A stretch of 64,000 nt of DNA from Candidatus Binatia bacterium (GCA_963666515.2 OY762897.2:1984001-2048000), one strand, 5' to 3'; numbered from the stretch's first letter, positions 8,713-61,267 are shown. The notes: a model not told the origin generated them from the letters alone. Numbers and translations are program-made.

Positions 8713-8869
8713 TGCCCGAAGCGGGGTACGTCGCAACAGATTCCGGCCGCAACCGTGCGCCTGACCGGCGCAAGCGCCGATCAGGGAATGGGAGCAAACA
8801 AAGATGCACCCGGAACCTTTGGAGGGAGAACTATTGTGGATGTGCGTCAGGTTGGTGTCCAGGACTGGA

Positions 8870-12093: not shown

Positions 12094-12130
12094 GGATTCG
12101 GTCCTCGAACGCGGCCCTTGAAACCGGTCC

Positions 12131-13360: not shown

Positions 13361-13389
13361 TTGACTCGGCACGGCGCAAGCGATAAGGT
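13361..13389 (+). promoter_or_regulatory. Sigma70-type promoter of ssb
   Basis: TTGACT-17 nt-TAAGGT, 38 nt upstream of the ssb ATG. Confidence 0.55.
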
Positions 13390-13427
13390 CCACGCAAACG
13401 TGGTCGAAACCCATTCATGAGGTCGTC

Positions 13428-45790: not shown

Positions 45791-46028
45791 GGTATCCGTG
45801 TGGAGACACGATGCTCTTGAAACAACGTCCGACACCCTGGAGGCCTGCCCCACTGAAGCGGGGGCGGTAAAGAGGCCTTAAACAATTCATCGGCAGGTTC
45901 GGGCCGTTCTTTAGTCTCAGCGGACCCGAATATCAGTGTAGAAGGGTACACCAACGGGGCTGGTCGGGCAAGCAGGAGTCCCGTCCACCCGGCAACCTGG
46001 TCGATGAACTCGCGCGGAGGCGACGCCC

Positions 46029-46907: not shown

Positions 46908-46917
46908 GGATACGGGA

Positions 46918-47730
46918 ATGACGAAGGAGTGGTCGACCCTGGTGCTGGAACGGCCCGCGGCGGGCGTGGTGCGGCTCAGCTTCAACCGGCCCGAGAAGCG
47001 CAACGCCCTCAACCGGGTGCTGACCGGCGAGATCCTCGACGCCCTCGAAACGGTGCGGGCGGACCCTGAGGTCCGGGTCGTCATCACCCGGGGCAACGGC
47101 CCGTGCTACTGCGCCGGCGCCGACCTCCACGACCTGCGCACGCTTCACAAGGAACCGCCGCGAGACTGGGACCGTTCCCATCCGAACCTCATGTTCTACG
47201 AGAGCTTCCGAAACTACCCCAAGGTCACCATCGCCCAAGTGCACGGCCACTGCCTGGGCGGCGGCATGGCGCTCATGACCGCCCACGACATCGCCCTGGC
47301 CGCGGACACCGCCAAGATCGGCATGCCCGAGATCCTGCGCGGAAGCTTCGGGCAGATGGCGCTCAGTTCCCTGTATCACACCGGCATCACGGCCAAGAAG
47401 GCCGCCCTGATGCACTTCAGCGGCCGGAACTTCTCGGGGACCGAGGCGGACCGCTTCGGGCTGGTGTCGGCGTCGGTGCCCGAGGCCGAACTGGAGGAGG
47501 TGACCCTCAAGCTCGCCGGGGAGATCGGCACGCGCCATCCCGCGGCCCTGGCCTGCGCCAAGATCGCGGTGCAGGTGGGCAAGGACCTCCCGCTGTCCCA
47601 AGCCCTGCGCACGGACCAACTCGTGGCCGCGCGCCAGCAGTTGATGATGGATTCGTTCTCGGACGTGGAGGACTATCTGCGCTCCCAGAGCGGCGGCACC
47701 AACACCGGCTACCGGCGCGACGATAGCTAG
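46918..47730 (+). CDS. Enoyl-CoA hydratase/isomerase family
   Basis: FNRPEKRNAL, CAGADL, GHCLGGG and GMPE. Confidence 0.9.
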   Translation: MTKEWSTLVLERPAAGVVRLSFNRPEKRNALNRVLTGEILDALETVRADPEVRVVITRGNGPCYCAGADLHDLRTLHKEPPRDWDRSHPNLMFYESFRNYPKVTIAQVHGHCLGGGMALMTAHDIALAADTAKIGMPEILRGSFGQMALSSLYHTGITAKKAALMHFSGRNFSGTEADRFGLVSASVPEAELEEVTLKLAGEIGTRHPAALACAKIAVQVGKDLPLSQALRTDQLVAARQQLMMDSFSDVEDYLRSQSGGTNTGYRRDDS

Positions 47731-48899
47731 ACGGCGTCCTTCGACTTCGCTTGGCTACGCCCCGCAGCGTCGCCCTCCGCTGTCAGGGAAGCGCCGGCCC
47801 TCAGCACCTCCGCGGCCTGCCGTACCATCGCCTGCACGATCTCGGCCGCGGGCCGCACGTCCTTCTCGCCCAGCAGTCCGGCGATCTGTCCGCCCGGCAC
47901 GCTCATGACGTCCACCCGGCTTCCCTGCTCCGCGGCCACCCGGAACTGGTCGTTGAGCACGCCCTGGAACGGCATCTCCAGCGGCTGCAGGCCCGATTCC
48001 TCCCACTTGCGGATCACCGGGCTGCGGTAGTGGCGGCTGGGCTTGCCGCTGGGATAGCGGTCGAGAACGAAGTCCTCGGTGCGGCCCCCGATGAGCTGGC
48101 TCTTGTAGTCGGCGTGTATCTCGCTCTCGGCGCTGGCCAGGAAGACCGTGCCGCACCACACGCCCACCGCGCCGAGGCTCAGCGCCGCCGCCAGGCCCCG
48201 GCCGTCGGCAATGCCTCCGGCCACCACCACGGGGGTGGGCTTCACCGCGTCCACCACCTGGGGTATCAGCGGGAAATTGGCGATTCTCCCCGTATGGCCG
48301 CCAGCCTCGTAGCCCTGGGCGATGACCACGTCCACGCCGTTGGCGGCGTGCCCCACCGCCTGCTTCACGTTGCCGCAGAGCGCCAGCACCTTCATGCCGC
48401 GCTCGTGAGCCAGCGGCACAACCTGGGCAGTGTCGCCGAGCCCCACCGCCAGCACCCGGACGCCCTCCTCCAGGATCACGTCCAGTTGCCGTTGCACCAT
48501 GTCCGGCGTCTTGACCTTGGACCACGGGTCGGGGCCCTGGGTCTCCAGCCCGAACTCCTCGATGGCCTCTCGCACGAACTCCACGTGATCGGGGTGGGTC
48601 CGCTCCAGGAACTCCCGGACGTTGCCGACGTCCGCGTAGGGCGTCTGCGCCAGCCGCGGCAGGGTGATGTCCACGCCGAAGGGCCGGTCGGTCAGCTCGC
48701 GGGTGGCGCGGATGCGCTCCCGGATGAACTCCGGCTGGAGCGGGCTGCCGCCGATGACGCCCAGGCCGCCGGCGTCGGACACCGCTGCCACCAGCTTCGG
48801 CGGGGTCGTGGAGCCGCGGCTGTCCCAGCCCATACCCGCCTGGATGATCGGGTGCTCGATGCCGAGCACGTCGCACAGAGAAGTCTTGAGTTTCGCCAT
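47727..48899 (-). CDS. Nitronate monooxygenase/FabK-like flavoprotein
   Basis: PIIQAGMG, QGYEAGGHTG and AGGIADGRG. Confidence 0.88.
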   Translation of the reverse strand: MAKLKTSLCDVLGIEHPIIQAGMGWDSRGSTTPPKLVAAVSDAGGLGVIGGSPLQPEFIRERIRATRELTDRPFGVDITLPRLAQTPYADVGNVREFLERTHPDHVEFVREAIEEFGLETQGPDPWSKVKTPDMVQRQLDVILEEGVRVLAVGLGDTAQVVPLAHERGMKVLALCGNVKQAVGHAANGVDVVIAQGYEAGGHTGRIANFPLIPQVVDAVKPTPVVVAGGIADGRGLAAALSLGAVGVWCGTVFLASAESEIHADYKSQLIGGRTEDFVLDRYPSGKPSRHYRSPVIRKWEESGLQPLEMPFQGVLNDQFRVAAEQGSRVDVMSVPGGQIAGLLGEKDVRPAAEIVQAMVRQAAEVLRAGASLTAEGDAAGRSQAKSKDAV

Positions 48900-49086
48900 T
48901 GCCGCGCTCCGGTCCGTGTATCCGCGTCCCTGGTCATCTAACGCGAACCGGCAGGCATTGCCAATGGCCACCGCGTTCCGGCGTCGTGGACAGCCGGAAC
49001 CAACCGTGTTAGGAGCCTGTGCCAACGGGCTTGAACCGATTTTGAATCGATTGCCCGGCAACACGGTCAACTCACGAGGACACGCC

Positions 49087-49962
49087 ATGGAGAACCGCCG
49101 CTACGACTATCAGCCCATCACCGGCCGTCCCAGGCTCCGCTGGCCCGACGATGCCAGAATCGCGGTCTGGGTGAGCCCCAACATCGAGTACTTCCACATC
49201 GACGAGCCCATTCCCAACTTCGGCATGTCCCGGATACCGGACGTGCGCGGCTACTCGCAACGCGACTACGGCGCGCGGGTCGGCGTCTTCAGGATGATGG
49301 AGGTGCTCGACAAGCACGGCGTCCGGGCCAGCGCCCAGTTGAACTCCGAGTGCTGCATCCACCACCGGGAAATCATCGACGAGGGGGTCAAGCGGGACTG
49401 GGAGTGGTTGGGACACGGCATCACCAACAACCGGCCCTTGACCTCGTATGTCGCCGCGGAGGAGCGCTCCATCATACGCCAGGTGCGAAACGAGATCGCC
49501 GAGGCGACCGGACAGGCGCCGCGGGGCTGGCTCGGACCGGCCCTGGCCGAGACCTTCGACACCCCGGACCACCTGGCGGCGGTGGGCTTCGACTACCTTT
49601 GCGACTGGGGCTTCGACGACCAGCCCGTCCCCATGCGCGTCCAGAGCGGCCGCATGATCGTCGTGCCCTACGAGCAGGGCCTGAACGACATCAACTTTTT
49701 CCTGCGCTCCAACTACACCCCCGGCGAGTACCTGCGGCAGGTCTGCGACCAGTTCGACGTGCTATACCGGGACGGCGAACAAAGCGGCACCGTCCTGTGC
49801 CTCCCCCTGCACCCGTTCATCATAGGAGTCCCCCTCCGCATCAAGTACCTCGACCTCGCCCTGGAATACATCCGCTCCCACGACGGCGTCTGGCTTACCA
49901 CCGGCGGGGAGATTGCGGAGTGGTACTATGAGCACTACTACGAGGATCCGGGGAAGCCGTAG
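49087..49962 (+). CDS. Polysaccharide deacetylase family (PuuE-like), paralog of 46029-46907
   Basis: Same motifs; colinear with the first copy. Confidence 0.88.
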   Translation: MENRRYDYQPITGRPRLRWPDDARIAVWVSPNIEYFHIDEPIPNFGMSRIPDVRGYSQRDYGARVGVFRMMEVLDKHGVRASAQLNSECCIHHREIIDEGVKRDWEWLGHGITNNRPLTSYVAAEERSIIRQVRNEIAEATGQAPRGWLGPALAETFDTPDHLAAVGFDYLCDWGFDDQPVPMRVQSGRMIVVPYEQGLNDINFFLRSNYTPGEYLRQVCDQFDVLYRDGEQSGTVLCLPLHPFIIGVPLRIKYLDLALEYIRSHDGVWLTTGGEIAEWYYEHYYEDPGKP

Positions 49963-49968
49963 AGCTCC

Positions 49969-50931
49969 ATGACGCAATCGTTCGAGATCATCCCGCGGGC
50001 GCCCTACTCCTTTGACTTCACCGCCGCGCGTTTCATGCGGTTTCCGAGTGAGAACGTCGACCTGGTGGAGCGTGGCCGGTACCGGCGCCTGCTCACCGCC
50101 GGCCGCCAGGCCGCCCTGGCCACGGTCACGGACGCCGGCACCGTGGCGCGGCCGAGACTCGCCGTGACCTTGCGCAGCCTGTCAAGGACCCCTCTCCAGT
50201 CGGCCGCGTTCGAGGCCCAACTGCGGCACATCCTGTGCACCGACCTCGATCTCAAACCGTTCTACCGCCTGGCGCGCGGGGACACGATGCTGGCGCCGAT
50301 GGTGAGCCGGTTTCGCGGGCTGCGCGTCGTCGCCAGCCCCACGCTGTTCGAGGCGCTGGTCACCGCGGTCCTCTCCCAGCAGGTCAACCTCACCTTCGCC
50401 TATTCCATCAAGCAGGCGCTGGTCGAGAGCTTCGGGCGCAAGTGGCGCCTGCGGGGGCGCACCTACTACGCGTTTCCCGAGCCGCGCCGGTTCGCCGCCC
50501 AAAGCCTCGGAGCCATGCGCGGCTTCCGGCTGAGCAACGCCAAGGCGGGCACGCTGATCCGCATCGGCGATGCGTTCGCCTCCGACTCCGCACTGGACGG
50601 GTTGGCGGCAATGCCCGACGAAGAGGTCGTCGAGCGCCTGACCGCGATCAAGGGAATCGGCCGCTGGTCCGCGGAGATCGCGCTGATGCGCGGCCTGGCC
50701 CGTCCGGATACCTTCCCGGCCGGCGACCTGGGGGTGGTCAAGTACGTGGCGCAGGGCCTGCTGGGAAAGACCGGCAAGGCCACCGAGGCCGAAATGCGCG
50801 CCTTCGCCGAACGCTGGCGGCCCTACCGGGGGCTGGCGCTGACGTACTGTTACGCGGAGTTGGCGACTCGGCGCGGCACGACCACGCCGGGCGTGGGCCG
50901 GAACCGTCCCGACGCCACGACGCCGGAGTGA
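49969..50931 (+). CDS. alkA: DNA-3-methyladenine glycosylase II (AlkA-like)
   Basis: HhH motif IKGIGRWSA, FPAGDLG and WRPYRG. Confidence 0.88.
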   Translation: MTQSFEIIPRAPYSFDFTAARFMRFPSENVDLVERGRYRRLLTAGRQAALATVTDAGTVARPRLAVTLRSLSRTPLQSAAFEAQLRHILCTDLDLKPFYRLARGDTMLAPMVSRFRGLRVVASPTLFEALVTAVLSQQVNLTFAYSIKQALVESFGRKWRLRGRTYYAFPEPRRFAAQSLGAMRGFRLSNAKAGTLIRIGDAFASDSALDGLAAMPDEEVVERLTAIKGIGRWSAEIALMRGLARPDTFPAGDLGVVKYVAQGLLGKTGKATEAEMRAFAERWRPYRGLALTYCYAELATRRGTTTPGVGRNRPDATTPE

Positions 50932-50940
50932 AGGCGACCC

Positions 50941-52071
50941 ATGCCGAGCACGCCTCATGACGCCGGCGGCGCCGGCCGCACGCTCTCCATCGTCGTGCCG
51001 ACGTTTCGCGAGGCGGCCAACATCACGCCGTTGGCCGAACGCATCGACGCGGCCCTGTCCGGCGCCGGCATCGAATGGGAGCTGTTGCTGGTGGACGACG
51101 ACTCCGACGACGGCAGCGAGGCCGTGGCCGCGGAACTGGCGCGGCGCCTGCCGGTGCGCATGGTGGTCCGCCGCGACGCGCCCCGCGATCTGTCGCTGGC
51201 CGTCATCGAGGGCATCCGGCAGTGCCGCTTCGACCGGCTGGTGGTGATGGACGCAGACCTGTCGCATCCGCCCGACCGCATCGCCGACCTGCTGGCCGCG
51301 CTGGACGCCGATTGCGACATGGTGATCGGCAGCCGCTACTCCCCCGGCGGCGTCGTGGACCCCTCGTGGAGCCTCTACCGCGTGCTGAACTCACGGCTGG
51401 CCACCTGGCTGGCGCGTCCTCTGGTCAAGTGCGCCGACCCGATGTCGGGTTTCTTCGCCACCCGCCGCAGCGCGCTGCCGGACCTCCGCACCCTGCGGCC
51501 CATGGGGTACAAGATCGCGCTGGAACTCCTGGTGCGGGGACGACTGCGGGCGCGCGAGGTGCCCATCGACTTCCGCGACCGGAGCGCCGGCGCCAGCAAG
51601 ATGAACTGGCGCCAGCAGCTCAGGTTCCTGCGCCACCTCTCCCGGCTTTACAACCACAAGTTCGGCAGCCTGGCGCGCGTTCCCTTCTTCAGCGCGGTGG
51701 GCGCCAGCGGCCTTGTGGTCGATCTCACCTGCTATCTCGGCCTTCAGTGGGCCGGCGTCGAGCACCGGCTCGCACGCTTCCTGTCCTTCTGGCCGGCGGT
51801 CGGCTGGAACTGGGCGCTCAACCGCGGCCTGACCTTCAGCGAGCGGGCGCGGCAGCCGCACCTGGGTCAGTTGGCCCGCTTCATGGCAAGCAGCCTCATC
51901 GGGCTTGCGGTGAACGTCGGCAGCTATGCGCTGTTGACCAGCTACGTGGATATCTTCGACCGTCACCGCCTGCTGGCGTTTTTCTGCGGCGTCGGCCTCG
52001 GCAGCATCGTCAACTTCCTGGTTGCCGACCTCTACGTCTACGGCCGGCGTCCGGGACCCGGACACGGGTAG
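50941..52071 (+). CDS. GT2 polyprenol-phosphate mannose synthase (DPM1/Ppm1-like) fused to GtrA domain
   Basis: SIVVPTF, VDDDSDDG, MDADLSHPP, GSRY, DPMSGFF and GYKIALE; C-terminal 4-TM GtrA-like region. Confidence 0.9.
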   Translation: MPSTPHDAGGAGRTLSIVVPTFREAANITPLAERIDAALSGAGIEWELLLVDDDSDDGSEAVAAELARRLPVRMVVRRDAPRDLSLAVIEGIRQCRFDRLVVMDADLSHPPDRIADLLAALDADCDMVIGSRYSPGGVVDPSWSLYRVLNSRLATWLARPLVKCADPMSGFFATRRSALPDLRTLRPMGYKIALELLVRGRLRAREVPIDFRDRSAGASKMNWRQQLRFLRHLSRLYNHKFGSLARVPFFSAVGASGLVVDLTCYLGLQWAGVEHRLARFLSFWPAVGWNWALNRGLTFSERARQPHLGQLARFMASSLIGLAVNVGSYALLTSYVDIFDRHRLLAFFCGVGLGSIVNFLVADLYVYGRRPGPGHG

Positions 52072-52078
52072 CGGGCTG

Positions 52079-53788
52079 GTGGCCACGAGATCCCAGCAGG
52101 CGCGCTCGCGGCGAGAACGAAGGCAAACGCCGGCGCGGTCCTGGCCGGAGCGTCTTCACGCCGCGCCGGAAGTCCTGTTGCACCCGCAAACGCCCGGCGC
52201 GCCGCCCTGGAAATACCTGCCCTGGGTCCTCACCCTCGCTTTCGCGGCGCGGGCGGCCGTGGCCCTCTCCGGCGACTTCGTCCTGCATCCCGACGAGATC
52301 ATGCAGTACCTGGAACCGGCGCACCGCCTGGTGTTCGGCAACGGCGTCGTCTACTGGGAGTTCTTCTACGGCGCGCGCTCGTGGCTCGTACCCGGCGTCG
52401 TCGCCGGGACGTTGATGCTTTTCGACCTGGCCGGGCTCGGTGAGCCGTCCTGGTACGTCGGCGGGGTGGAGCTCGTGTTCTGCGCGCTCTCCCTGGCGAT
52501 TCCGGCCGGGATGTACTTCTTCGCGCGGCGGCACTTCAGTGAAGCCGCGGCGCGGGCGGCGCTCCTGGCCGGCGCGTTCTGGTACGAACTGTTGGGTTTC
52601 GCGCACAAGCCCATGACCGAGTTCGTCGCCACCGCGATACTGATGGCCTTGCTGGCGCTCTGCGTCCAGCCGGCGGCGAACCGGACCCGGACGGCGTGGC
52701 TGGCGGCTCTCCTGGCCGTGCTGGCGGCCGCGGTCCGGTTGCAGTACGCGCCGCTGGCGCTCGTGCTTTTGGGCATCTTCTTTCTCCGCACCGAAAGGAA
52801 GTGGCTGGTTGCGCTTGCCGCGGCGGTGTTCCTGCTGGCAGTCGGTCTCTTTGACATGCTGACGTGGAACCTGGCGGCGGACTCGTTCGGCGCGTCACCC
52901 TGGAACCCCGGACCGTTTCATTCCTACCAGACCAACATCCGCGTCAACCTGGCCCTCGGCGAGACCCTGGCGGCCGGGCATCCCGCATGGCAGTACCCTG
53001 TGTGGCTGCTGCACGCCGGCGGCGGACTGACCCTGCTGTGCGCGGCCATGGCCCTGCGCGAGCCGCGACGCTACGGGCTGCTGCTTTCGCTCATTGCCCT
53101 CGTCCTGCTCCTCCATGCGGCGCAGGCCCACAAGGAGTACCGCTTCATCTTCGTCGTCGTCCCGCTTTGGCTTCTGATCGGCGCGGACCTTGCGGCCCGG
53201 CTCGCGGCCGTGGCGGAGCGGACATGGTTGAGGCGCGGTGCGGCCGCGGCCGTGTTTGCGGCAGTTTCATCGGCCGGGATTCTGGAAGCGTTGCCGTATC
53301 AGAAGTGGCTGTACCAGGGAGTCTGGATACGACCGCCCGACAAAATCGGCTTCATCGGCGGCCGGGATCCCGCTTTTCCCGCCTACCGATACCTTGCCCG
53401 GACCCCCGGCGTCGCCGCGGTCGCACACGTCCATCGCCAGTACCACGGCACGCCCGGATACTACCATCTGCACCGCAAGATACCGTTCTATGACCGCGAT
53501 ACCCTGGGCCTCGTGGGAAAAAACCTGCCGGAGTTTTCGGCTTCCGTCAGCCACGTGGTGTCCGAGCGCCCGGATCTTGTCCTTCCCGGCTACTCGGTGG
53601 AAAAGGCCTTCGGCAACATCCGCATCTGGCGCCGGGAAAACAACGATGCGCCGGTCCGCCGGTGGCGGAGCCATACTCCGATCATCGACTCCCATCACAC
53701 GCGTGTTCTGCGCCGGCTGAGCCCCGATGCCCCCGCGGTACCGCCTGATTCCGGCATCCGGTTCGCAGGCATGGCGGTCTCACCATGA
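52079..53788 (+). CDS. GT-C mannosyltransferase, PIG-B/Alg9 (GT22)-like
   Basis: HPDEIMQYLEPAHRLVFGNGVVYWEF...RSW and HKEYRFI motifs; start uncertain (52022 or 52079). Confidence 0.85.
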   Translation: MATRSQQARSRRERRQTPARSWPERLHAAPEVLLHPQTPGAPPWKYLPWVLTLAFAARAAVALSGDFVLHPDEIMQYLEPAHRLVFGNGVVYWEFFYGARSWLVPGVVAGTLMLFDLAGLGEPSWYVGGVELVFCALSLAIPAGMYFFARRHFSEAAARAALLAGAFWYELLGFAHKPMTEFVATAILMALLALCVQPAANRTRTAWLAALLAVLAAAVRLQYAPLALVLLGIFFLRTERKWLVALAAAVFLLAVGLFDMLTWNLAADSFGASPWNPGPFHSYQTNIRVNLALGETLAAGHPAWQYPVWLLHAGGGLTLLCAAMALREPRRYGLLLSLIALVLLLHAAQAHKEYRFIFVVVPLWLLIGADLAARLAAVAERTWLRRGAAAAVFAAVSSAGILEALPYQKWLYQGVWIRPPDKIGFIGGRDPAFPAYRYLARTPGVAAVAHVHRQYHGTPGYYHLHRKIPFYDRDTLGLVGKNLPEFSASVSHVVSERPDLVLPGYSVEKAFGNIRIWRRENNDAPVRRWRSHTPIIDSHHTRVLRRLSPDAPAVPPDSGIRFAGMAVSP

Positions 53789-55026
53789 AGAGAAAACCGA
53801 AACAGACGAAGAAGACGAGGAAGGTCGAGGCAAGCGCCTCGGAACCACGCCACCGAACCGCGGTCATGCCGGCCGGGGAACCGCTGTTCAAGGGCTTTCC
53901 GAACCCGGAGGCGTCGGCGATTTTCCTGATCGCCAAGGCGGTGGTGGCGGCGGCGCTCCTCCTCGCGTTCTACGTTTTCGACGGGCTGCACGCCGTCAAC
54001 CTCTGGAACCGCTGGCATTCCGGGACCGACGTGCTCAACGCCCTCTACCTGCCTTTCGCCAACTGGGACGGCCAGCACTACGCGCTGCTCGCCGACCGGG
54101 GCTACCCGGGACATCCGCACAGCCATGCGTTCTTCCCTCTGTATCCTCTGGCGGTCAGGGCCGTGCAACTCGTTCTCGGTGACGTCTACGTGTCCGGCCT
54201 CGTGCTGAACCTGCTGCTGTCGTTCCTCTTCTGCCACGTTTTCCACCGGTACGCCGTTCACTTCCTGCCGGCGCGGTCCGCATCCGGAGCGCTCGCTCTC
54301 CTGTTGTGCTATCCGACCGCGTTCTATTTGACCGTATTGTACTCGGAGGCGTTGTTCCTGCTGTTGCTGTTCGCGTTCCTCTACTTCCATGACCTGCGCA
54401 AGAGCTACCTCAGCGCGCTCTTCGCCCTGCTGCTGCCGCTGGCGCGCGGGCAGGCGGTTTTCGTATTGGCGGCCGTGTTGATCATCGTCGCCGTCGAACG
54501 CTTCAAGGGCAAGCCCATCGACTACCGGTATGAAGCTTGCAACCTGGCTGCGTTTGCCGCCGGCGGAGTGTTGTACCTCGTGTTTTTCCACGCGGTGGTG
54601 GGCGACGCGTTCTCGGGAATCCGGGCGCAGGGCAGCTTCGTATTCGGCAATTCGCTCGCCAACATACTCAACCCCGGGCATTTTCTGGCGTACCTGTTCT
54701 CCGGGACCCAGGGCGTATTCGGCTATACCCATTCGCTGGTGGACAAGATCTTCGTAGTCGCGTCGCTGCTGTCCATCGCCATCGTGGCCGGGACGAGAAA
54801 CCTCCGGTGGCTGGTGCTGTACGTCATGCTGCTCTACCCGGTGGCTGCGATGGGCGCGGGCGGTTCCTTCTCACGCTTCTCGCTGGTGGCGGCGCCCATC
54901 CTCGTCCTCGCAGTCTGGACGCTCTACGGCGCGCACCCGCGGATCCTCTATGGCGCCGGCGCCGTCCTGCTGGCCGTGCAGATCTTCTTTGCCGGCCGCT
55001 TCGCGCTCAATCTGTGGGTTGCTTGA
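53785..55026 (+). CDS. GT-C mannosyltransferase, PIG-V-like
   Basis: NWDGQHYALLADRGY, AFFPLYP and YSEALF motifs; ATGA overlap with upstream gene. Confidence 0.82.
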   Translation: MKRKPKQTKKTRKVEASASEPRHRTAVMPAGEPLFKGFPNPEASAIFLIAKAVVAAALLLAFYVFDGLHAVNLWNRWHSGTDVLNALYLPFANWDGQHYALLADRGYPGHPHSHAFFPLYPLAVRAVQLVLGDVYVSGLVLNLLLSFLFCHVFHRYAVHFLPARSASGALALLLCYPTAFYLTVLYSEALFLLLLFAFLYFHDLRKSYLSALFALLLPLARGQAVFVLAAVLIIVAVERFKGKPIDYRYEACNLAAFAAGGVLYLVFFHAVVGDAFSGIRAQGSFVFGNSLANILNPGHFLAYLFSGTQGVFGYTHSLVDKIFVVASLLSIAIVAGTRNLRWLVLYVMLLYPVAAMGAGGSFSRFSLVAAPILVLAVWTLYGAHPRILYGAGAVLLAVQIFFAGRFALNLWVA

Positions 55027-56506
55027 TTCCGCCTCGCCGGACGGGAGCGGGGACGTCCTCTTCCGGAGAGTCCGCGTCCGCGCGGCCGTAGGCATCCTCG
55101 TAGCGGACGATGTCGTCCTCATCCAGGTAACCGCCGTACTGCACCTCCACCAGTTCCAGCGGCGCCGTGCCCGGATTCGCCAGCCGGTGTTTCGTTCCCT
55201 GGGGAATGTAAGTGGATTGATTCTCCGCCAACACCAGGGTCTCGTCCCCCCGGGTCACCCGCGCGGTCCCGCGGACCACCACCCAGTGCTCGCAGCGATG
55301 TTCATGCGATTGCAGGGAGAGGGCGTGGCCGGGGTTCACGAAGATGTGCTTCACCTTGAAGCCGTCGCCGATGAGCACGTCATGGTACGTGCCCCACGGA
55401 CGATGGACCTGCCGGTGCACCCGATGCTCATCCCGGCCCGACGACCTGAGCCGCGCCACCACCTTGCGCATGTCGCGAGACGCGTCCCTGCGCGCCACAA
55501 GCAACGCATCGGCGGTGTCCACGATGACGAGATCGGACACGCCCACCGCGGCCACGACCCGATATCCGGCACGGACGTAGGTGTCGCGGACTCCCTCCAG
55601 GATGGCGTCGCCCACGGCCACGTTGCCGGCGCCGTCTCTCTCGCCAAGTTCGGCCAACGCCGCCCAGGAGCCGACGTCCGACCAGTCCGTTGCCAGCGGG
55701 ACCATCACCGCGGCGGAAGTGCGCTCCATGACGGCATGGTCCACCGAGATGGCGGGCGAGCTGGAGAAGGAGGCCGCGTCCAGTCGCAGGAAGCCGGTCT
55801 CCCGCACGGCGTTCCGGTGGGCCTGCGCTACCGCGTCGCGCACCGCCGGCTCGTGGACGCCCAGTTCCCGCAGGTAGCGGCCGGCCGAAAAGACGAACAT
55901 GCCGCTGTTCCAGTAGTACCCGCCCTCTTCAACGCAGGCGGCGGCCTCCGCGGCGTCCGGCTTCTCGATGAACCGCTCGACCCTGCGCCCGTCCTCGCTC
56001 ACGCGGGTGAGGCCCGCGGCCTTGATGTATCCGTACCCGGTCTCGGCGTAGGCCGGAACGACGCCGAAGGTCACGAGATGCCCGGAGGCTGCCTCCCGGA
56101 CCGCGGCCCGGACCGCGCCGGCGAACCGGCCCTCGTCCCGGATGACGTGATCGGCGGGAAGAACCAGCAGGATGGGGTCCGCGCCGTCGTCGAGGGCCAG
56201 GGCCTGAAGCGCCGCCGCGGCGATGGCCGGCGCGGTGTTTCGCCCGACCGGCTCCAGCAGCACGGCCGAAGGGGTCACGTCGATGCCCTTGAGCTGTTCG
56301 GCCACCATGAACCGGTGCGCCTCGTTGCACACCACGATGGGCGCCTGCAACTCGTCCAGCGGCGCGAGGCGCCGGACGGTGGCCTGGAGGAGCGTGCGCT
56401 CCTCCGCCAGCGGAATGAACTGCTTGGGATGGAGTTCACGGGAAAGGGGCCAGAGCCGGGTTCCGGCGCCGCCCGAGAGAATCACGGGGAACAGGACCTG
56501 TTTCAT
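55007..56506 (-). CDS. manC: Mannose-1-phosphate guanylyltransferase/mannose-6-phosphate isomerase
   Basis: GGAGTRLWPLSR, PKQF, EPVGRNTAPA, WSDVGSW, RPWG and LSLQSH. Confidence 0.95.
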   Translation of the reverse strand: MKQVLFPVILSGGAGTRLWPLSRELHPKQFIPLAEERTLLQATVRRLAPLDELQAPIVVCNEAHRFMVAEQLKGIDVTPSAVLLEPVGRNTAPAIAAAALQALALDDGADPILLVLPADHVIRDEGRFAGAVRAAVREAASGHLVTFGVVPAYAETGYGYIKAAGLTRVSEDGRRVERFIEKPDAAEAAACVEEGGYYWNSGMFVFSAGRYLRELGVHEPAVRDAVAQAHRNAVRETGFLRLDAASFSSSPAISVDHAVMERTSAAVMVPLATDWSDVGSWAALAELGERDGAGNVAVGDAILEGVRDTYVRAGYRVVAAVGVSDLVIVDTADALLVARRDASRDMRKVVARLRSSGRDEHRVHRQVHRPWGTYHDVLIGDGFKVKHIFVNPGHALSLQSHEHRCEHWVVVRGTARVTRGDETLVLAENQSTYIPQGTKHRLANPGTAPLELVEVQYGGYLDEDDIVRYEDAYGRADADSPEEDVPAPVRRGGIKQPTD

Positions 56507-57171
56507 CCCGACCAACCCGATTCGTTGCCGGGGCGCCAGGGCCGCCCGTTCCCCCGGAGGACGCGCCGGTTCCACCACGCGATCAGAGGGGAGATGAGGA
56601 GGGTGGGGAGTATCCACGCCAGCCAGACCGGCCGGGTGTCGACGTTGACCACCACGACCGCGGTGACGGTGGCGATGGTTCCCGCCAGCATGTTGGTGAG
56701 ATGGCGCGCGATGCGTTGCCGGCCGGACCGGGCCGGCGACCGGTGATACCGCAGGTCAACGGCGCCCAGGGCCGCGGCGATGAACCCGAACACGCCCAGG
56801 GTCACCCACTGCGGGTCGCCCCGCAGGAACAGCACGATGCCGTAGGCCCACATGCCCAGCCCGGTGAGCCCCATGAGCGCGGCCGCGGTCCGGTCCACGG
56901 GCCGGGGCCGCCCGCTCGCGTTGCGGGCAAAGCGCCAGCCGGCGAAGACGAGGTAGAAGCTGAACGCCGCCACCAGCAAGAGCACCACGTCGGAACCGAG
57001 CAGGGCCAACGGCGCCGCGCTCGCGCACACCAGCGCCATGGCCGCGGCATAGACCCGCCCCGCCCGAACGTGGCGCGCTTCGCCCTTTGCGGTGAGAAGC
57101 GCGACGGCCGCGGCGGCCAACGCCACCGAGCCGGCGGCTATGTGTAAAACGAGGAGGATGGTGCCGGCCAT
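56503..57171 (-). CDS. Predicted membrane protein (DUF2306-like)
   Basis: HIAAG, KGEARHVRAGRVY and HLTNM; ATGA overlap with manC. Confidence 0.75.
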   Translation of the reverse strand: MAGTILLVLHIAAGSVALAAAAVALLTAKGEARHVRAGRVYAAAMALVCASAAPLALLGSDVVLLLVAAFSFYLVFAGWRFARNASGRPRPVDRTAAALMGLTGLGMWAYGIVLFLRGDPQWVTLGVFGFIAAALGAVDLRYHRSPARSGRQRIARHLTNMLAGTIATVTAVVVVNVDTRPVWLAWILPTLLISPLIAWWNRRVLRGNGRPWRPGNESGWSG

Positions 57172-57294
57172 GTCGGACGGATGTTAGCACGAACATCGAT
57201 CCGTCGAGAAACCACCGGGCAGGCAAGCGTTTTGAGCGCAAGCTCATGTTGACCCGGACGTGCCGAGTCGGTATGCATAGACGCCGGGAGCACG

Positions 57295-57747
57295 ATGGGT
57301 ACGGTCCACGAAATCTACATCGCGTCGGAAGGCAGCGCCCACATGCGGAAGGTGGAGGAGGCCGAGGCCCTCGCCAGCATGGGGCTCAAGGGCGACCGCT
57401 ACTGCGAGCGGACCGGCTACTACAGCGGCTGGGACGAGTGCCAGGTGACCCTCATCGAGGCCGAGGAACTGGAGGCCATCGCCGCCGCCTCCGGCCTGCA
57501 GGTGCTCAACGGCGAGCACCGGCGCAACATCGTCACCCGCGGCGTCCGCCTGGGCGATCTCGTGGGACATGCCTTTCGCGCCGGCGACGCGGTCCTCGCC
57601 TTCGACCGGCCGCGCCCGCCGTGCGCCTACATCCAGTCCATTACCGAGCCTGGCATGACCCGGGCACTCGCCGGCAAGAGCGGCATCTGCGCACTGGTCG
57701 TGCAGGGCGGCTTCATCCGGCCCGGCGACGAGATCGCCGTGCTCTGA
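57295..57747 (+). CDS. MOSC domain protein
   Basis: GLKGDRY, QVTLI, RRNIVTRG and PC. Confidence 0.88.
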   Translation: MGTVHEIYIASEGSAHMRKVEEAEALASMGLKGDRYCERTGYYSGWDECQVTLIEAEELEAIAAASGLQVLNGEHRRNIVTRGVRLGDLVGHAFRAGDAVLAFDRPRPPCAYIQSITEPGMTRALAGKSGICALVVQGGFIRPGDEIAVL

Positions 57748-59084: not shown

Positions 59085-60110
59085 TCACTCATCCTCGACG
59101 GCCAACTCCTCCTGGTACTTTCGCCACCGGCCGCGGAACTGGTGATAGGTCAGCCCGAGCGCCTTTGCCGCCTGGCGCTGGTTGTACCTCGCGTCCGCAA
59201 GGCTCTCGCGGATCATTCGCACTTCCAGCTCTCTCACCGCCTCCTCGAGGGATCTGTCCGGCCCGCCGGGAGCACCGGCCGGGGATGACGGGGACGGGGC
59301 CGGCGCCTGAGCCTCGCCCCCGTCGCTCCCACTCGCACTGAAAGGCGGGACGAAAGGGTCGAAGACGAGATCGTCGACGGTGGACGTGTCGGATCGATAC
59401 ACCGCGCGCTCGATCACGTTCCTGAGCTCGCGGACGTTGCCCGGCCAAGCGTAGCTTTCCATCTGGGCCACCGCGCGGCGGCTGAACCGCGGGAGAGATT
59501 CCCAACCCAACTCGTGCGCCATGCGCGCGGCAAAGTGATCGGCCAGCAACAGGATGTCGTCACCGCGAGCCCGCAAGGGTGGAACGAAGAGGACGTCGAA
59601 CGACAGCCTGTCGAGCAGGTCGCGCTTGAAACGGCCCTGACCGGCCAGCGAGGGCAGGTCTGCATTGGTCGCCCCGATGATTCTCGTGTCCACTTGAACG
59701 GGTTGCGAAGATCCCACCCTTTCAAAACTGCCGTACTCCACCACCCGAAGGATCTTCTCCTGGACCTCCGTGGGGATTTGAGCGATTTCATCCAGGAAGA
59801 GTGTCCCGTCCGTTGCCGCCTCGAACCGTCCGGTGCGCCGTTGATGGGCGCCGGTGAAAGCGCCTTCCTCGTGGCCGAACAGTTCCGACTCCAGCAGAGT
59901 CGGCGCCAACGCGGCGCAGTTCAGGGCAACCAATGGCCCCTGCCAACGCGGTGACAGATAGTGGAGCTTGGCCGCGGCGAGTTCCTTGCCGGTGCCGCGT
60001 TCACCGATCAACAGGATCGGACGATCGACCTTGGCGGCGCGGGACAGCATTTCCTGGAATTCCAGGAAGGCGTTGGACTGTCCCAGCGGCTCCGTGTAGG
60101 ATTCAGGCAT
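59085..60110 (-). CDS. pspF: Sigma54 activator PspF
   Basis: GERGTGKE, GAFTGA, WPGNVREL and HTH LTYHQFRG; divergent from pspA. Confidence 0.95.
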   Translation of the reverse strand: MPESYTEPLGQSNAFLEFQEMLSRAAKVDRPILLIGERGTGKELAAAKLHYLSPRWQGPLVALNCAALAPTLLESELFGHEEGAFTGAHQRRTGRFEAATDGTLFLDEIAQIPTEVQEKILRVVEYGSFERVGSSQPVQVDTRIIGATNADLPSLAGQGRFKRDLLDRLSFDVLFVPPLRARGDDILLLADHFAARMAHELGWESLPRFSRRAVAQMESYAWPGNVRELRNVIERAVYRSDTSTVDDLVFDPFVPPFSASGSDGGEAQAPAPSPSSPAGAPGGPDRSLEEAVRELEVRMIRESLADARYNQRQAAKALGLTYHQFRGRWRKYQEELAVEDE

Positions 60111-60124
60111 GGAGTCTCCTGTAT

Positions 60125-60160
60125 TGGTGAAAAATACCATATAATTGTTATTTCCACCAA
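60125..60160. promoter_or_regulatory. Candidate PspF enhancer (imperfect inverted repeat)
   Basis: TTGGTGAAAAATA...TATTTCCACCAA, about 90-120 bp upstream of the -24 box. Confidence 0.5.
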
Positions 60161-60215
60161 TAATCAGTATTTACTACCACAGAAGAAAAGAGAGCCAGGG
60201 GCACAAACTCAACAA

Positions 60216-60228
60216 AAACAAGTACTTG
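60216..60228 (+). promoter_or_regulatory. IHF-like site
   Basis: AAACAAGTACTTG, one mismatch to WATCAANNNNTTR, between enhancer and promoter. Confidence 0.45.
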
Positions 60229-60244
60229 GAAACAACAGCAGCGG

Positions 60245-60261
60245 TTGGCACTCTTTGTGCT
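60245..60261 (+). promoter_or_regulatory. Sigma54 (-24/-12) promoter of pspA
   Basis: TTGGCACTCTTTGTGCT: GG-N10-GC. Confidence 0.85.
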
Positions 60262-60319
60262 TTCTCCAGTACACAGCGGCACGGACACGTTCTCCGCGAA
60301 TTCCGAGGGAGGAAGTCAA

Positions 60320-60988
60320 ATGGGAATCTTTACACGCTTGAGCGACATCATCAGCTCGAACATCAACTCGATGCTGGACAAGGCCGAGGATCCGGAAAAG
60401 CTCATCCGGCTGATGATACAGGAGATGGAAGATACGCTGGTCGAGATCAAGGTGGCTTGCGCCCAGGCGATGGCGGCGCGCAAGAAGGTCGAGCGCGAGC
60501 ACGATGAAGCGCGGCGGCGCCACGACCAGTGGGCGGACAAGGCCAGGCTCGCCGTGGACAAGGGACGCGAAGACCTGGCGCGCGAAGCGCTGGTGGAAAA
60601 GCGGCGCTATCGGGAGCGCTCGGAGACCCTGGACAGCGAGGCGGTCCAGTGCACCGCCATCATTGAACAATACCAGTCGGACATGGCCCAGTTGGAAGAC
60701 AAGCTGGCGAAAGCGAAGGAAACCCAGCGCATCCTGGTGCAGCGCCACATTCAGGCGCGCAAGCGGAAGCGCGCCCAGACCGGGATCCGCAAGATGGGCA
60801 GCGCGGACACGATGCTGCGTTTCGAGCAGTTCGAGAACCGTATCGAGCGGATGGAGGCCGAGGCCGACCTGGTCAACTTCGCGCGCAAGCCGGATCTCGA
60901 TGAAGAGTTCGCCCGCCTGGGACAGGACGACGAGATCGAAGCCGAACTGCGGGCGCTCAAGGATGCCGCTCGGCGGTCCGATGTCTGA
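60320..60988 (+). CDS. pspA: Phage shock protein A
   Basis: MGIFTRLSDIISSNINSMLDKAEDPEKLIRLMIQEMEDTLVE. Confidence 0.97.
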   Translation: MGIFTRLSDIISSNINSMLDKAEDPEKLIRLMIQEMEDTLVEIKVACAQAMAARKKVEREHDEARRRHDQWADKARLAVDKGREDLAREALVEKRRYRERSETLDSEAVQCTAIIEQYQSDMAQLEDKLAKAKETQRILVQRHIQARKRKRAQTGIRKMGSADTMLRFEQFENRIERMEAEADLVNFARKPDLDEEFARLGQDDEIEAELRALKDAARRSDV

Positions 60989-61033
60989 GACGCGGCAGCG
61001 GTGTGTGCGGCTGAAACGCATGAGTGAGCGGGG

Positions 61034-61267
61034 ATGGCACCGGAAAGCATCATGGGAATAGTGTTGGGCGTGCTCGGGATCCTCTTGATCCTGGGCGCGG
61101 CCTTGATCGTCATGGTGGTATGGGCGATCAAGTCGCTCCGCGGCAACGGAGCCGGCGGCGATGAGGCCCAATTGATGCAAGAGCTCTACCAGGGGCTGAG
61201 CCGGCTCGAAGACCGCGTGGAATCCCTGGAGACCATTCTACTCGACAGAAAGGACAGAAACCCATGA
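61034..61267 (+). CDS. pspB: Phage shock protein B-like
   Basis: One TM segment + RLEDRVESLETILLD. Confidence 0.85.
   Translation: MAPESIMGIVLGVLGILLILGAALIVMVVWAIKSLRGNGAGGDEAQLMQELYQGLSRLEDRVESLETILLDRKDRNP

What the first reader, a model, noticed from the sequence alone, without database searches (positions are those of the whole stretch)
50941..56506. GPI-anchor-like mannosylation cassette: DPM1-GtrA + PIG-B-like + PIG-V-like + ManC
Seen: an operon of polyprenol-P-mannose synthase fused to a GtrA flippase-like domain, a GT-C with PDE..Q.LE.AH..VFG.G...WE and HKE.RF motifs, and a GT-C with WD..HY...A..GY/AFFPLYP/YSE motifs, convergent with manC. Established: these motifs match eukaryotic PIG-B/Alg9 (alpha-1,2) and PIG-V (alpha-1,6) mannosyltransferases, which act consecutively in GPI synthesis using Dol-P-Man. 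Inference: a self-contained path (GDP-Man to lipid-P-Man, flip, two mannosylations) building a GPI-core-like or lipomannan-like surface glycan in a diderm bacterium, possibly for host mimicry or phage-receptor masking. The acceptor is unknown.
Basis: partly seen in the sequence, partly recalled or inferred. Interest (0 to 1): 0.7.

Follow-up and report, generated by a model that had tools for sequence, protein, structure and literature searches.

The report
Lipid-mannose glycosylation locus with swappable transferases
A sponge-associated bacterium has the genes to load mannose onto a membrane lipid carrier, followed by two membrane enzymes related to the eukaryotic ALG9/PIG-B and PIG-V mannose-adding enzymes; related species carry other enzymes or none at this spot, and the molecule that receives the sugar is unknown.

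Summary
Window 50941-56506 encodes four proteins:
- a GT2 + GtrA-type protein, a full-length homologue of the archaeal Dol-P-Man synthase (PDB 5mlz, E 3.8e-52);
- a GT22/Alg9-like GT-C (PF03901, 99.6 bits);
- a divergent PIG-V-like GT-C. It has no Pfam hit itself, but hhalign to PF04188 carriers gives probability 100%, and the AF2 model (pLDDT 90.5) matches only GT-C structures;
- a convergent ManC.

The "self-contained GPI-like cassette" reading is only partly supported. The synthase and ManC are conserved genus genes that flank a variable slot:
- the slot is empty in 4 of 9 congeners examined;
- it holds TMTC-like PMT_2+TPR genes, with or without GT22, in the other 5;
- the PIG-V-like gene was found in 0 of 27 congeners.

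The genome (98% complete) has LpxC. No inositol-1-phosphate synthase, GT87, PIG-M or Wzy_C was found. It has four more GT-Cs elsewhere and only one GtrA-type synthase.

Best reading: a periplasmic, polyprenyl-phosphate-mannose-dependent "three-component"-type mannosylation system with exchangeable GT-C modules. The acceptor is unknown, possibly O-mannosylated envelope proteins.

This scan noted related GT22/TMTC mannosylation islands before on other sponge-symbiont DNA (e1-1256838, e1-1205963). The PIG-V-like partner and the slot structure are new here. No bacterial member of these families was found characterised in the literature searched.

The parts
50941..52071 (+). Polyprenyl-phosphate mannose synthase of the archaeal 'type III DPMS' build: a GT2 catalytic domain followed by a C-terminal four-helix GtrA/DPMS membrane domain.
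   Evidence: Pfam PF00535 and PF04138. Full-length match to P. furiosus Dol-P-Man synthase 5mlz (E 3.8e-52, residues 14-360 against 24-365), including VVMDADLSHPP against VVMDADLQHPP. ArnC scores only E 1.9e-14. It is the only GtrA_DPMS_TM domain in the genome. Orthologues at 75-89% identity occur in 14 of 18 congeners.
52178..53788 (+). GT22 (ALG9/ALG12/PIG-B-like) GT-C glycosyltransferase, 536 aa, with a C-terminal non-membrane domain of about 150 aa.
   Evidence: PF03901 at 99.6 bits against a cut-off of 23.8. D39, E40, K319, R322 and F323 are invariant in 23 of 23 relatives; H318 and E320 are nearly so (90% or more). Both motifs align to human ALG9. The start at 52178 follows the database protein P0122.
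53785..55026 (+). Divergent PIG-V/Gpi18-like (Mannosyl_trans2 superfamily) GT-C glycosyltransferase, 413 aa, translationally coupled to the GT22 gene by an ATGA overlap.
   Evidence: hhalign against PF04188 carriers gives probability 100%, E 1.7e-39. AF2 pLDDT is 90.5. Foldseek matches with E<=0.001 are all GT-C enzymes. W94, D95, F116, P118 and E188 are invariant in 36 of 36. The ESM Atlas top clusters are named PIG-V.
55007..56506 (-). ManC, a bifunctional mannose-6-phosphate isomerase / mannose-1-phosphate guanylyltransferase that supplies GDP-mannose.
   Evidence: TIGR01479 at E 1.5e-192, 640 bits against a cut-off of 373. It borders the slot in all 9 congener loci examined.
56503..57171 (-). 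222-aa multi-pass membrane protein (weakly DUF2306-like), ATGA-coupled upstream of ManC. Its association with the system is possible but unproven.
   Evidence: Weak PF10067 hit at E 0.0027. ESM Atlas clusters are partly DUF2306. It is present next to ManC in 8 of 9 congener loci.

Best explanation
This is a periplasmic mannosylation system of the 'three-component' type, fed by polyprenyl-phosphate-mannose, with an exchangeable transferase module.

Proposed steps:
1. ManC makes GDP-mannose.
2. The GT2 enzyme, an archaeal-type Dol-P-Man synthase homologue, transfers mannose to a polyprenyl phosphate on the cytoplasmic face.
3. The lipid-linked mannose reaches the periplasmic face, perhaps helped by the enzyme's own GtrA-like membrane domain.
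4. GT-C enzymes transfer the mannose to an envelope acceptor.

The synthase and ManC are conserved genes of the genus and flank a slot that holds different GT-C genes in different species. In this genome the slot holds two translationally coupled GT-Cs, one GT22 (ALG9/PIG-B-like) and one PIG-V-like. They probably add two mannoses, or mannose in two linkages, to the same acceptor.

The same single synthase probably also serves the TMTC-like and TMEM260-like GT-Cs elsewhere in the genome. The acceptor is not known. My preferred guess (about 35%) is the extension of O-mannose on envelope proteins started by the TMTC/TMEM260-like enzymes. It is not a GPI pathway.

Shown: gene content, family assignments, fold, synteny and variability. 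Inferred: mannose as the sugar, the flipping step, periplasmic action, sequential action and the acceptor.
For: Donor branch:
- The ManC equivalog hit.
- The synthase matches PfDPMS (5mlz) over its full length at E 3.8e-52, against 1.9e-14 for ArnC and 1.1e-5 for the sll0501 GT2 glycosyltransferase.
- ManC abuts the slot in 9 of 9 congener loci.
- PGM/PMM genes are present.

Transferases:
- The PF03901 hit, with both motifs aligned to ALG9.
- The PIG-V-like protein has a confident GT-C model whose top matches are all GT-Cs and full-length profile homology to PF04188 proteins.
- Invariant acidic residues follow TM1 in both proteins. That is where the catalytic base of GT-C(A) enzymes lies (passages of PMC13503287).

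Slot structure:
- The backbone NMO - CE4 - AlkA - synthase - [slot] - ManC - membrane protein - MFS is conserved.
- The slot is empty in G004, G005, G012 and G015.
- In G003, G007, G013, G001 and G016 it holds 13 ORFs with TPR and/or PMT_2 domains (12 with TPR, 7 with a detectable PMT_2 GT-C domain), plus GT22 in three of these genomes.

Pairing:
- The ATGA overlap between GT22 and the PIG-V-like gene.
- Relatives of both genes lie on contigs of identical length, 5,719 and 783,499 nt.
- A 5,675-nt contig from a run labelled sponge metagenome, from another study, spans 50248-55922 with 151 differences. A 2,001-nt contig of a third study bridges the GT22/PIG-V junction.

One donor, many GT-Cs:
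- There is one GtrA_DPMS_TM domain in the genome.
- There are three PMT_2 genes, two of them with TPR, and one TMEM260-like gene.

Recurrence:
- The closest relative in the GTDB genomes (L001, 35% identity) sits in the order GT2-GtrA, methyltransferase-GT2, PIG-V-like, methyltransferase, PMT_2+TPR.
- In congener G002, GT22 lies between a GT2-GtrA gene and a TMEM260-like GT-C.

The three-component concept is taken from passages of PMC11127046.
Against: - No experiment exists. Sugar specificity of GT2 polyprenyl-phosphate glycosyltransferases cannot be read securely from sequence, and the NCBIfam hits are all far below their cut-offs.
- ManC is convergent, so it is not in the same transcript.
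- The genus-wide adjacency to ManC is a single evolutionary event among kin. In addition, 0 of 80 distant PIG-V-like loci have ManC or GT22 within 9 kb, and only 13 of 80 have a GT2.
- In G009 and G018 a GT22 gene stands alone among unrelated metabolic genes, so GT22 does not need neighbours in the slot.
- The protein-acceptor idea is weak. Eukaryotic GT22 and PIG-V enzymes act on lipid-linked glycans, not proteins. No candidate substrate gene lies in the window.
- The GT22 structural model was poor (pLDDT 56), so its fold was not tested structurally.
- No RNA data were available.
Confidence: 0.65

Rival explanations
1. LPS modification: the GT-Cs mannosylate O-antigen, core or lipid A in the periplasm, as the GtrABC or ArnT seroconversion and modification systems do. 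The variable slot would then be a serotype locus.
For: The genome has LpxC. The slot varies between species much as serotype-converting loci do. The architecture matches the three-component systems described for O-antigen modification (passages of PMC11127046).
Against: No Wzy_C (O-antigen ligase/polymerase) domain was found in the 98%-complete genome, while the control rang in 9 of 14 genomes. No LPS or O-antigen genes lie in the 64-kb window. The GT-C families are GT22 and PIG-V-like, not Gtr* or ArnT. In congeners the slot partners are TPR-bearing TMTC-like proteins, whose eukaryotic relatives act on proteins (PMC7801869 passages).
Confidence: 0.15
2. One reading: a GPI-core-like or phosphatidylinositol-anchored lipomannan-like glycolipid is built by consecutive PIG-V-like and PIG-B-like steps.
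For: The two GT-Cs belong to the same families as GPI-MT-II (PIG-V) and GPI-MT-III (PIG-B). They are adjacent and translationally coupled, next to a Dol-P-Man-synthase homologue.
Against: No inositol-1-phosphate synthase was found (control positive in 6 of 14). No GT87 (PimE/Mpt type) was found. No PIG-M was found (control silent, so weak). The PIG-V-like gene is absent from 27 of 27 congeners, so no conserved pathway depends on it. GT22 membership does not single out PIG-B, since ALG9 and ALG12 are in the same family. A lipomannan on a non-inositol glycolipid anchor, as recalled for Corynebacterium, is not excluded by these tests.
Confidence: 0.07
3. The two GT-Cs are a horizontally acquired remnant with no current role, or they use a different lipid-linked sugar made elsewhere. 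Their position beside the synthase would then be incidental.
For: The PIG-V-like gene occurs only in this species within the genus. In congeners some GT22 copies are frameshifted (G013), fragmentary (G008) or lie next to transposases (G018:C41, G012). An earlier scan note describes a decaying mobile island of this kind (e1-1256838).
Against: Both genes here are intact, with coding-type GC3 of 0.84-0.85. Their catalytic-loop residues are invariant. They are ATGA-coupled. The arrangement is kept at about 95-97% nucleotide identity in contigs of two other studies. The genome holds only one DPMS-type synthase.
Confidence: 0.08

Closest known systems
GtrA/GtrB/Gtr* three-component periplasmic glycosylation of O-antigens (Shigella, Salmonella) and related systems (passages of PMC11127046 and PMC13390465 seen; PMC8035078 seen as a search listing only)
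   Same: A GT2 polyprenyl-phosphate-hexose synthase, a GtrA-family membrane module and GT-C transferase(s) encoded together. The GT-C part is exchangeable.
   Different: The synthase and the GtrA-like module are one polypeptide of the archaeal DPMS type. The sugar is probably mannose rather than glucose. The GT-Cs belong to GT22 and the PIG-V family. No O-antigen machinery was found. The acceptor is unknown.
Pyrococcus furiosus dolichyl-phosphate mannose synthase (PDB 5mlz/5mm0/5mm1)
   Same: Full-length alignment at E 3.8e-52, covering the catalytic DAD motif and the C-terminal four-helix membrane domain.
   Different: This is a bacterial host, so the lipid is presumably undecaprenyl phosphate rather than dolichyl phosphate. 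Activity is untested.
Eukaryotic ER-luminal mannosyltransferases: GT22 (ALG9, ALG12, PIG-B, PIG-Z) and PIG-V/Gpi18 (GT76)
   Same: A Pfam GT22 hit above threshold with both signature motifs. Profile homology and shared motifs with PIG-V-family proteins, including an oomycete one. GT-C fold. A Dol-P-Man-synthase-type donor enzyme next door.
   Different: The PIG-V-like protein fails the Pfam threshold itself. The ALG9 match at PDB level is weak (E 0.16). No inositol synthesis or PIG-M was found. The setting is bacterial and periplasmic. The acceptor cannot be GlcN-PI or Dol-PP-GlcNAc2Man(n) as in eukaryotes.
Actinobacterial Ppm1 plus GT-C mannosyltransferases (PimE, MptA/B/C, Pmt) for PIM/LM/LAM and protein O-mannosylation (recalled, not read here)
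   Same: A polyprenyl-P-Man donor made by a GT2 and several periplasm-facing GT-Cs sharing it. One product class is O-mannosylated proteins extended by a second GT-C.
   Different: Those GT-Cs are GT87 and GT39, and no GT87 was found here. The host here is probably diderm with lipid A (LpxC). No inositol-1-phosphate synthase was found.
Bacterial TMTC-like/GT22 'mannosylation islands' of sponge symbionts noted earlier in this scan (e1-1256838, e1-1205963); prokaryotic TMTC-like proteins are noted in print (PMC7801869)
   Same: The same enzyme families (GT2 synthase, GT22, PMT_2+TPR, TMEM260-like), the same habitat signal, and patchy, partly mobile distribution.
   Different: Here the locus is a fixed chromosomal slot between conserved genes. 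It carries a PIG-V-like GT-C coupled to GT22, which those notes do not mention.

Membership tests
Pfam Glyco_transf_22 / CAZy GT22 (ALG9, ALG12, PIG-B, PIG-Z) | Scores above the curated family threshold | tested here: met
   PF03901 at 99.6 bits against a cut-off of 23.8, E 3.1e-28, profile positions 1-343 of 414. The same holds in the whole-genome scan.
Pfam Glyco_transf_22 / CAZy GT22 (ALG9, ALG12, PIG-B, PIG-Z) | Acidic catalytic base in the first helix of the first luminal loop (D82 in HsALG9, E35 in GgALG12; PMC13503287 passages) | tested here: inconclusive
   D39 and E40 of the HPDE motif are invariant in 23 of 23 relatives and lie just after TM1. The HMMER alignment to ALG9 covers this stretch, but its register is uncertain by about two residues. 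The AF2 model was too poor to check (pLDDT 56).
Pfam Glyco_transf_22 / CAZy GT22 (ALG9, ALG12, PIG-B, PIG-Z) | Second signature HKE-x-RF before a late transmembrane helix | tested here: met
   HKEYRF aligns to HKEERF of human ALG9. K319, Y321, R322 and F323 are invariant; H318 and E320 are nearly so.
Pfam Glyco_transf_22 / CAZy GT22 (ALG9, ALG12, PIG-B, PIG-Z) | Transfers mannose from a polyisoprenyl-phosphate-mannose donor | not testable with these tools
   Only context speaks for it: a DPMS homologue and ManC adjacent.
Pfam Mannosyl_trans2 / PIG-V, Gpi18 (CAZy GT76) | Scores above the curated family threshold | tested here: not met
   No Pfam hit for the window protein, even at E<=10. 18 of 36 aligned relatives do hit PF04188.
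Pfam Mannosyl_trans2 / PIG-V, Gpi18 (CAZy GT76) | Homology to family members over the whole length, with shared motifs | tested here: met
   hhalign of the close family against 30 PF04188 carriers gives probability 100%, E 1.7e-39 over 357 columns. BLASTP to an oomycete PF04188 protein gives 34% identity over 172 aa, E 4e-15, sharing the FANWDG, HAFFPLYPL and LYSE motifs.
Pfam Mannosyl_trans2 / PIG-V, Gpi18 (CAZy GT76) | GT-C fold with a conserved Asp in the first extracytoplasmic loop | tested here: met
   AF2 pLDDT 90.5. All 12 Foldseek matches at E<=0.001 are GT-Cs (STT3, Pmt4, AftB, PglB). D95 is invariant in 36 of 36 and lies at the start of the first loop helix after TM1.
Pfam Mannosyl_trans2 / PIG-V, Gpi18 (CAZy GT76) | Acts within a GPI pathway (inositol lipid acceptor, PIG-M step before it) | tested here: not met
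   No Inos-1-P synthase in the genome (control positive). No PIG-M family hit (control silent).
Type III (archaeal-type) dolichyl/polyprenyl-phosphate mannose synthase | GT2 catalytic domain with a DAD motif joined to a C-terminal four-helix GtrA/DPMS membrane domain | tested here: met
   PF00535 and PF04138. A continuous alignment to 5mlz_A, residues 14-360 against 24-365.
Type III (archaeal-type) dolichyl/polyprenyl-phosphate mannose synthase | Specificity for GDP-mannose | not testable with these tools
   The best solved relative is a Dol-P-Man synthase, ahead of the next solved enzyme by about 38 orders of magnitude in E-value. ManC is adjacent. No NCBIfam equivalog threshold was reached.
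Three-component periplasmic glycosylation system (Gtr type) | Lipid-sugar synthase, GtrA-family module and GT-C encoded together | tested here: met
   The GtrA part is fused to the synthase.
Three-component periplasmic glycosylation system (Gtr type) | Known acceptor glycan (O-antigen, teichoic acid and the like) with its locus | tested here: not met
   No such genes in the window. No Wzy_C domain in the genome.

The most novel reading that the evidence does not exclude
The coupled GT22 and PIG-V-like pair, fed by an archaeal-type Dol-P-Man synthase, is a bacterial counterpart of the eukaryotic ER-luminal mannosyltransferase module (the enzymes that add the second and third GPI mannoses and the outer N-glycan mannoses). 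It would build a short alpha-linked oligomannose on a protein or a non-inositol lipid at the surface of a sponge symbiont. That would give the cell a eukaryote-like high-mannose epitope that affects recognition by the host. Such bacterial lineages would also be candidates for the source, or a sister group, of enzyme families that a 2016 analysis (PMC4973528) treated as apparently unique to eukaryotes.
Probability: 0.12. Interest if true: 0.8.

Novelty: new variant of a known kind. Interest (0 to 1): 0.5.

Why it matters
If the reading holds, bacteria use close relatives of the eukaryotic ER-luminal mannosyltransferase families (GT22 and PIG-V) in an ordinary periplasmic lipid-linked glycosylation scheme. 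They would also exchange these enzymes as modules behind one conserved donor synthase. This would matter in three ways.

- It gives a tractable bacterial model for enzyme families that are hard to study in the ER.
- It bears on where the eukaryotic luminal GT-Cs came from. A 2016 analysis found only very distant prokaryotic relatives (PMC4973528, passages).
- It points to mannose-based surface decoration, varying between species, in abundant sponge symbionts, where surface glycans are likely to matter for host recognition.

The practical gap is the acceptor. No bacterial GT22 or PIG-V-like enzyme with a tested function turned up in the library searches.

Tried and rejected
- AF2 model of the GT22 protein: pLDDT 56, pTM 0.46. 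It was not used for fold search.
- PDB sequence searches: the single GT22 sequence gave 0 hits at E<=1. The PIG-V-like profile gave 0 hits. No PIG-V structure appeared among the fold matches, so the family could not be tested structurally.
- Promoter and terminator scan of 49500-57600: 0 promoter-like sites and 8 weak terminator-like sites against 4.4 expected, all inside genes. Uninformative.
- Composition: GC3 is 0.84-0.85 for the two GT-Cs against 0.79-0.91 for their neighbours. There is no clear foreign-DNA signal, so horizontal origin is argued from distribution only.
- PIG-M family search in the genome: no hit, but the control rang nowhere. This is not evidence.
The GTDB and JGI scans found nothing closer than 35% and 38% identity.
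- Expression: no RNA holder listed.
- First attempt at search for related loci with the wide alignment failed for lack of a conserved stretch. It was repeated with the closer alignment.
- Scan-notes look-ups with the words PIG-V/GT22/Alg9/GtrA/DPM1 and with the PIG-V-like sequence: nothing.
- ORF 60209-61180(-) and ORF 45933-47096(-), first listed as unknown genes, were rejected as antisense shadows of PspA (60245-60988, +) and a CE4 deacetylase (46029-46907, +).

Full report
**What is in the sequence**

The region lies in a high-GC genome: 65.8% GC, 4.67 Mb, two contigs, 98% complete.

On the plus strand, an AlkA-type DNA glycosylase gene (49969-50931) is followed after 9 nt by a 376-aa gene (50941-52071). 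That gene carries a GT2 domain and a GtrA/DPMS transmembrane domain.

After a 106-nt gap comes a 536-aa gene (52178-53788). Its start is a TTG, as in the database protein P0122. It matches Pfam Glyco_transf_22 at 99.6 bits against a cut-off of 23.8.

Its stop overlaps, as ATGA, the start of a 413-aa gene (53785-55026). This gene has no Pfam hit at all.

On the minus strand, ManC (55007-56506; TIGR01479, E 1.5e-192) converges on that gene with a 20-nt overlap. ManC is itself ATGA-coupled to an upstream gene for a 222-aa membrane protein (56503-57171).

- the third protein is not recognised by the PIG-V Pfam model;
- ManC belongs to another transcript.

**The donor enzyme**

Against all PDB sequences, the GT2-GtrA protein matches the Pyrococcus furiosus dolichyl-phosphate mannose synthase (5mlz) at E 3.8e-52. 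The alignment is one continuous stretch, residues 14-360 against 24-365. It runs through the catalytic VVMDADLxHPP segment and on into the C-terminal membrane helices.

The next solved relatives are far weaker: the ArnC enzymes at E 1.9e-14 and the Synechocystis sll0501 GT2 glycosyltransferase at E 1.1e-5.

So what looked like a synthase fused to a flippase is the known single-chain archaeal DPMS build. It is the only GtrA_DPMS_TM domain in the genome. It is also the only hit to itself in the genome at E<=0.001. Mannose specificity remains an inference, because no NCBIfam equivalog threshold was reached.

**The two GT-C proteins**

*GT22-like protein.* It has more than a thousand relatives among the scored candidates, and the best 120 all carry PF03901.

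In an alignment of 23 relatives the HPDE and HKEYRF motifs are conserved: D39, E40, K319, R322 and F323 are invariant, and H318 and E320 nearly so. A profile of that alignment finds, in the whole PDB, only human ALG9 as a relevant match. The match is weak (E 0.16), but it falls on exactly these two motifs.

Passages of the 2026 ALG3/9/12 structure paper (PMC13503287) give three relevant facts:
- the catalytic base lies in the first helix of the first luminal loop;
- ALG9 and ALG12 have a C-terminal luminal domain;
- one family makes both alpha-1,2 and alpha-1,6 links.

The linkage therefore cannot be read from the family name. My AF2 model of this protein was poor (pLDDT 56) and was not used.

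*PIG-V-like protein.* It has 20 cluster relatives at 62-92% identity, all from metagenome assemblies. Below those lies a tail of proteins that carry PF04188.

The evidence for membership in the PIG-V superfamily:
- 18 of 36 aligned relatives hit PF04188.
- It aligns to an oomycete PF04188 protein at 34% identity over 172 aa, through the FANWDG, HAFFPLYPL and LYSE motifs.
- hhalign between its close family and 30 PF04188 carriers gives probability 100%, E 1.7e-39, over 357 columns.
- The ESM Atlas nearest clusters are named PIG-V.
- The AF2 model is confident (pLDDT 90.5). All 12 Foldseek matches at E<=0.001 are GT-C enzymes, and the weaker GT-C matches include ALG12, ALG9, PimE and GPI-MT-I at TM-scores of about 0.45-0.5.
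- D95 is invariant in 36 of 36. It lies at the start of the first loop helix after TM1, and the basic N-terminus points to a cytoplasmic start.

It is a divergent member of the PIG-V/Gpi18 superfamily. That superfamily is large in prokaryotes: 13,887 representatives at E<=0.001 and 332 at E<=1e-30 among 1.84 billion.

**The locus is a slot, not a cassette**

Among 18 congeners sampled:
- the synthase has orthologues at 75-89% identity in 14;
- GT22 matches occur in 8, at only 50-65% identity and partly at other loci;
- the PIG-V-like gene is in none.

The whole genus sample gives 0 of 27 for the PIG-V-like gene. The 12 same-order genomes give 0 of 12.

I fetched the synthase locus from nine congeners. 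All nine share the same backbone: NMO, CE4 deacetylase, AlkA, synthase, [slot], ManC, membrane protein, MFS.

| Slot state | Genomes | Content |
|---|---|---|
| Empty (synthase and ManC 0-120 nt apart) | G004, G005, G012, G015 | none |
| Occupied (2.5-7.4 kb) | G003, G007, G013, G001, G016 | 13 large ORFs with TPR and/or PMT_2 domains; GT22 next to ManC in G001, G016 and, frameshifted, G013 |

Of the 13 large ORFs, 12 have TPR arrays and 7 have a detectable PMT_2 GT-C domain. These TPR-bearing GT-Cs are the bacterial TMTC-like proteins already noted in print (passages of PMC7801869).

Elsewhere in the genus:
- GT22 stands alone among metabolic genes in G009 and G018.
- It sits beside a TPR GT-C and transposases in G012 and G018:C41.
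- It lies between another GT2-GtrA gene and a TMEM260-like GT-C in G002.

**The GT22 and PIG-V-like pair elsewhere**

Across the GTDB species genomes, the nearest other relative of the PIG-V-like protein is 35% identical. It lies in a Desulfobacteraceae MAG, again in a cluster: GT2-GtrA, methyltransferase-GT2, PIG-V-like, methyltransferase, PMT_2+TPR.

Of the 80 loci kept from that scan, 13 have a GT2 within the flanks and none has GT22 or ManC. The JGI metagenome scan gave nothing closer than 38%.

Two lines of evidence still tie the pair together:
- Relatives of both genes sit on contigs of identical length, 5,719 and 783,499 nt.
- Public-run contigs bridge the junctions: a 4,144-nt contig with one difference (X1); a 5,675-nt contig spanning 50248-55922 with 151 differences in a run labelled sponge metagenome from another study (X5); and a 2,001-nt contig across the GT22/PIG-V junction in a third study (X6).

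The arrangement is thus stable in a natural population and linked to sponges. No RNA run was listed.

**What the rest of the genome says about the acceptor**

| Feature searched in the genome | Result |
|---|---|
| LpxC | present |
| PGM/PMM genes | two present |
| Inositol-1-phosphate synthase | none (control positive in 6 of 14) |
| GT87 | none |
| PIG-M | no hit (control silent) |
| Wzy_C domain | none (control positive in 9 of 14) |
| PMT_2+TPR genes | two |
| PMT_2 GT-C in an epimerase-UbiA operon | one |
| TMEM260-like GT-C | one |

These results speak against a GPI- or PIM-like inositol glycolipid and give no support for O-antigen modification. One DPMS-type synthase has to serve them all, except probably the UbiA-linked one. 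That also explains why the synthase and ManC are kept in congeners whose slot is empty.

The company that GT22 keeps across the genus consists of relatives of eukaryotic protein O-mannosyltransferases. My preferred, but weakly held, acceptor is therefore envelope proteins, with GT22 and the PIG-V-like enzyme extending or diversifying an O-mannose glycan. A lipid or polysaccharide acceptor is not excluded.

**Comparison with what is known, and novelty**

Mechanistically this is the three-component scheme of periplasmic glycosylation (passages of PMC11127046), with a fused archaeal-type synthase and unusual GT-C families.

A 2016 evolutionary study treated Alg3/9/12 as apparently unique to eukaryotes, with only distant prokaryotic relatives (passages of PMC4973528). 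Here a bacterial protein passes the GT22 Pfam threshold by a wide margin. The family passes its cut-off in 12 of 151 genomes of the phylum sample and in 0 of 14 model genomes.

My library searches found no paper on the function of a bacterial GT22 or PIG-V-like enzyme.

The scan itself has noted GT22/TMTC islands in other sponge-symbiont genomes before (e1-1256838 and e1-1205963). Those notes agree with this reading but are not independent evidence.

New here are the coupled PIG-V-like partner and the demonstration of a fixed, species-variable GT-C slot between conserved donor genes. I rate it a new variant of a known kind, with interest 0.5.

Noticed in passing
G000:C1:4052605-4056309 (L190:3605-7309): An operon of an NAD-dependent epimerase, a UbiA-family prenyltransferase and a PMT_2 GT-C (590 aa). 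It resembles the PRPP-dependent pentofuranose three-component systems described in PMC11127046, so it may be a second, mannose-independent lipid-linked glycosylation route in the same genome.
   Followed up: partly
L103 (G002:C1:612000-630000): In a congener, a different GT2-GtrA gene (34% identical to the window's synthase), a GT22 gene and a TMEM260-like GT-C sit together. They are flanked by giant ORFs, one of at least 1,764 aa with six Calx-beta and fn3 domains. This is a possible glycoprotein substrate next to its glycosylation genes.
   Followed up: partly
L096 (G013:C1:5150000-5169000), about 7136-13776: In one congener the slot holds a PMT_2-only ORF (461 aa) overlapping a TPR-only ORF (490 aa), and a GT22 read in two frames (residues 19-382 and 383-536). 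These are split or frameshifted forms of slot genes.
   Followed up: partly
L187 (G018:C41:1-12487) and L104 (G012:C1:1250000-1264000): Extra GT22 copies next to large TPR (PMT_2) proteins lie beside IS66, IS4-type or DDE_3 transposase genes. This suggests that these GT-C modules move.
   Followed up: partly
window 56503-57171 (-): A 222-aa multi-pass membrane protein, weakly DUF2306-like, is translationally coupled to ManC and kept there in 8 of 9 congener loci. Its function is unknown, and it may or may not belong to the glycosylation system.
   Followed up: partly
window 59085-60988: A sigma-54 activator without a receiver domain (59085-60140, minus strand) lies divergent from a PspA/IM30 gene (60245-60988, plus strand), a PspF-PspA-like pair. 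The 323-aa ORF on the minus strand (60209-61180) is probably a shadow of pspA.
   Followed up: partly
window 46029-46907 (+) and 48664-49962 (+): Two CE4 polysaccharide-deacetylase (PuuE-like) paralogues lie upstream of the locus. The 387-aa ORF at 45933-47096 (minus strand) is the antisense shadow of the first. Several congeners also carry tandem copies.
   Followed up: partly
window 44438-45853 (-) and 4311-9871: An N6/N4 DNA methylase gene sits in a lower-GC stretch (0.61 against about 0.69 around it). Separately, a 4.5-kb stretch without high-GC3 ORFs lies next to a YhgA-like transposase gene (8870-9871). These may be mobile or foreign DNA.
   Followed up: no
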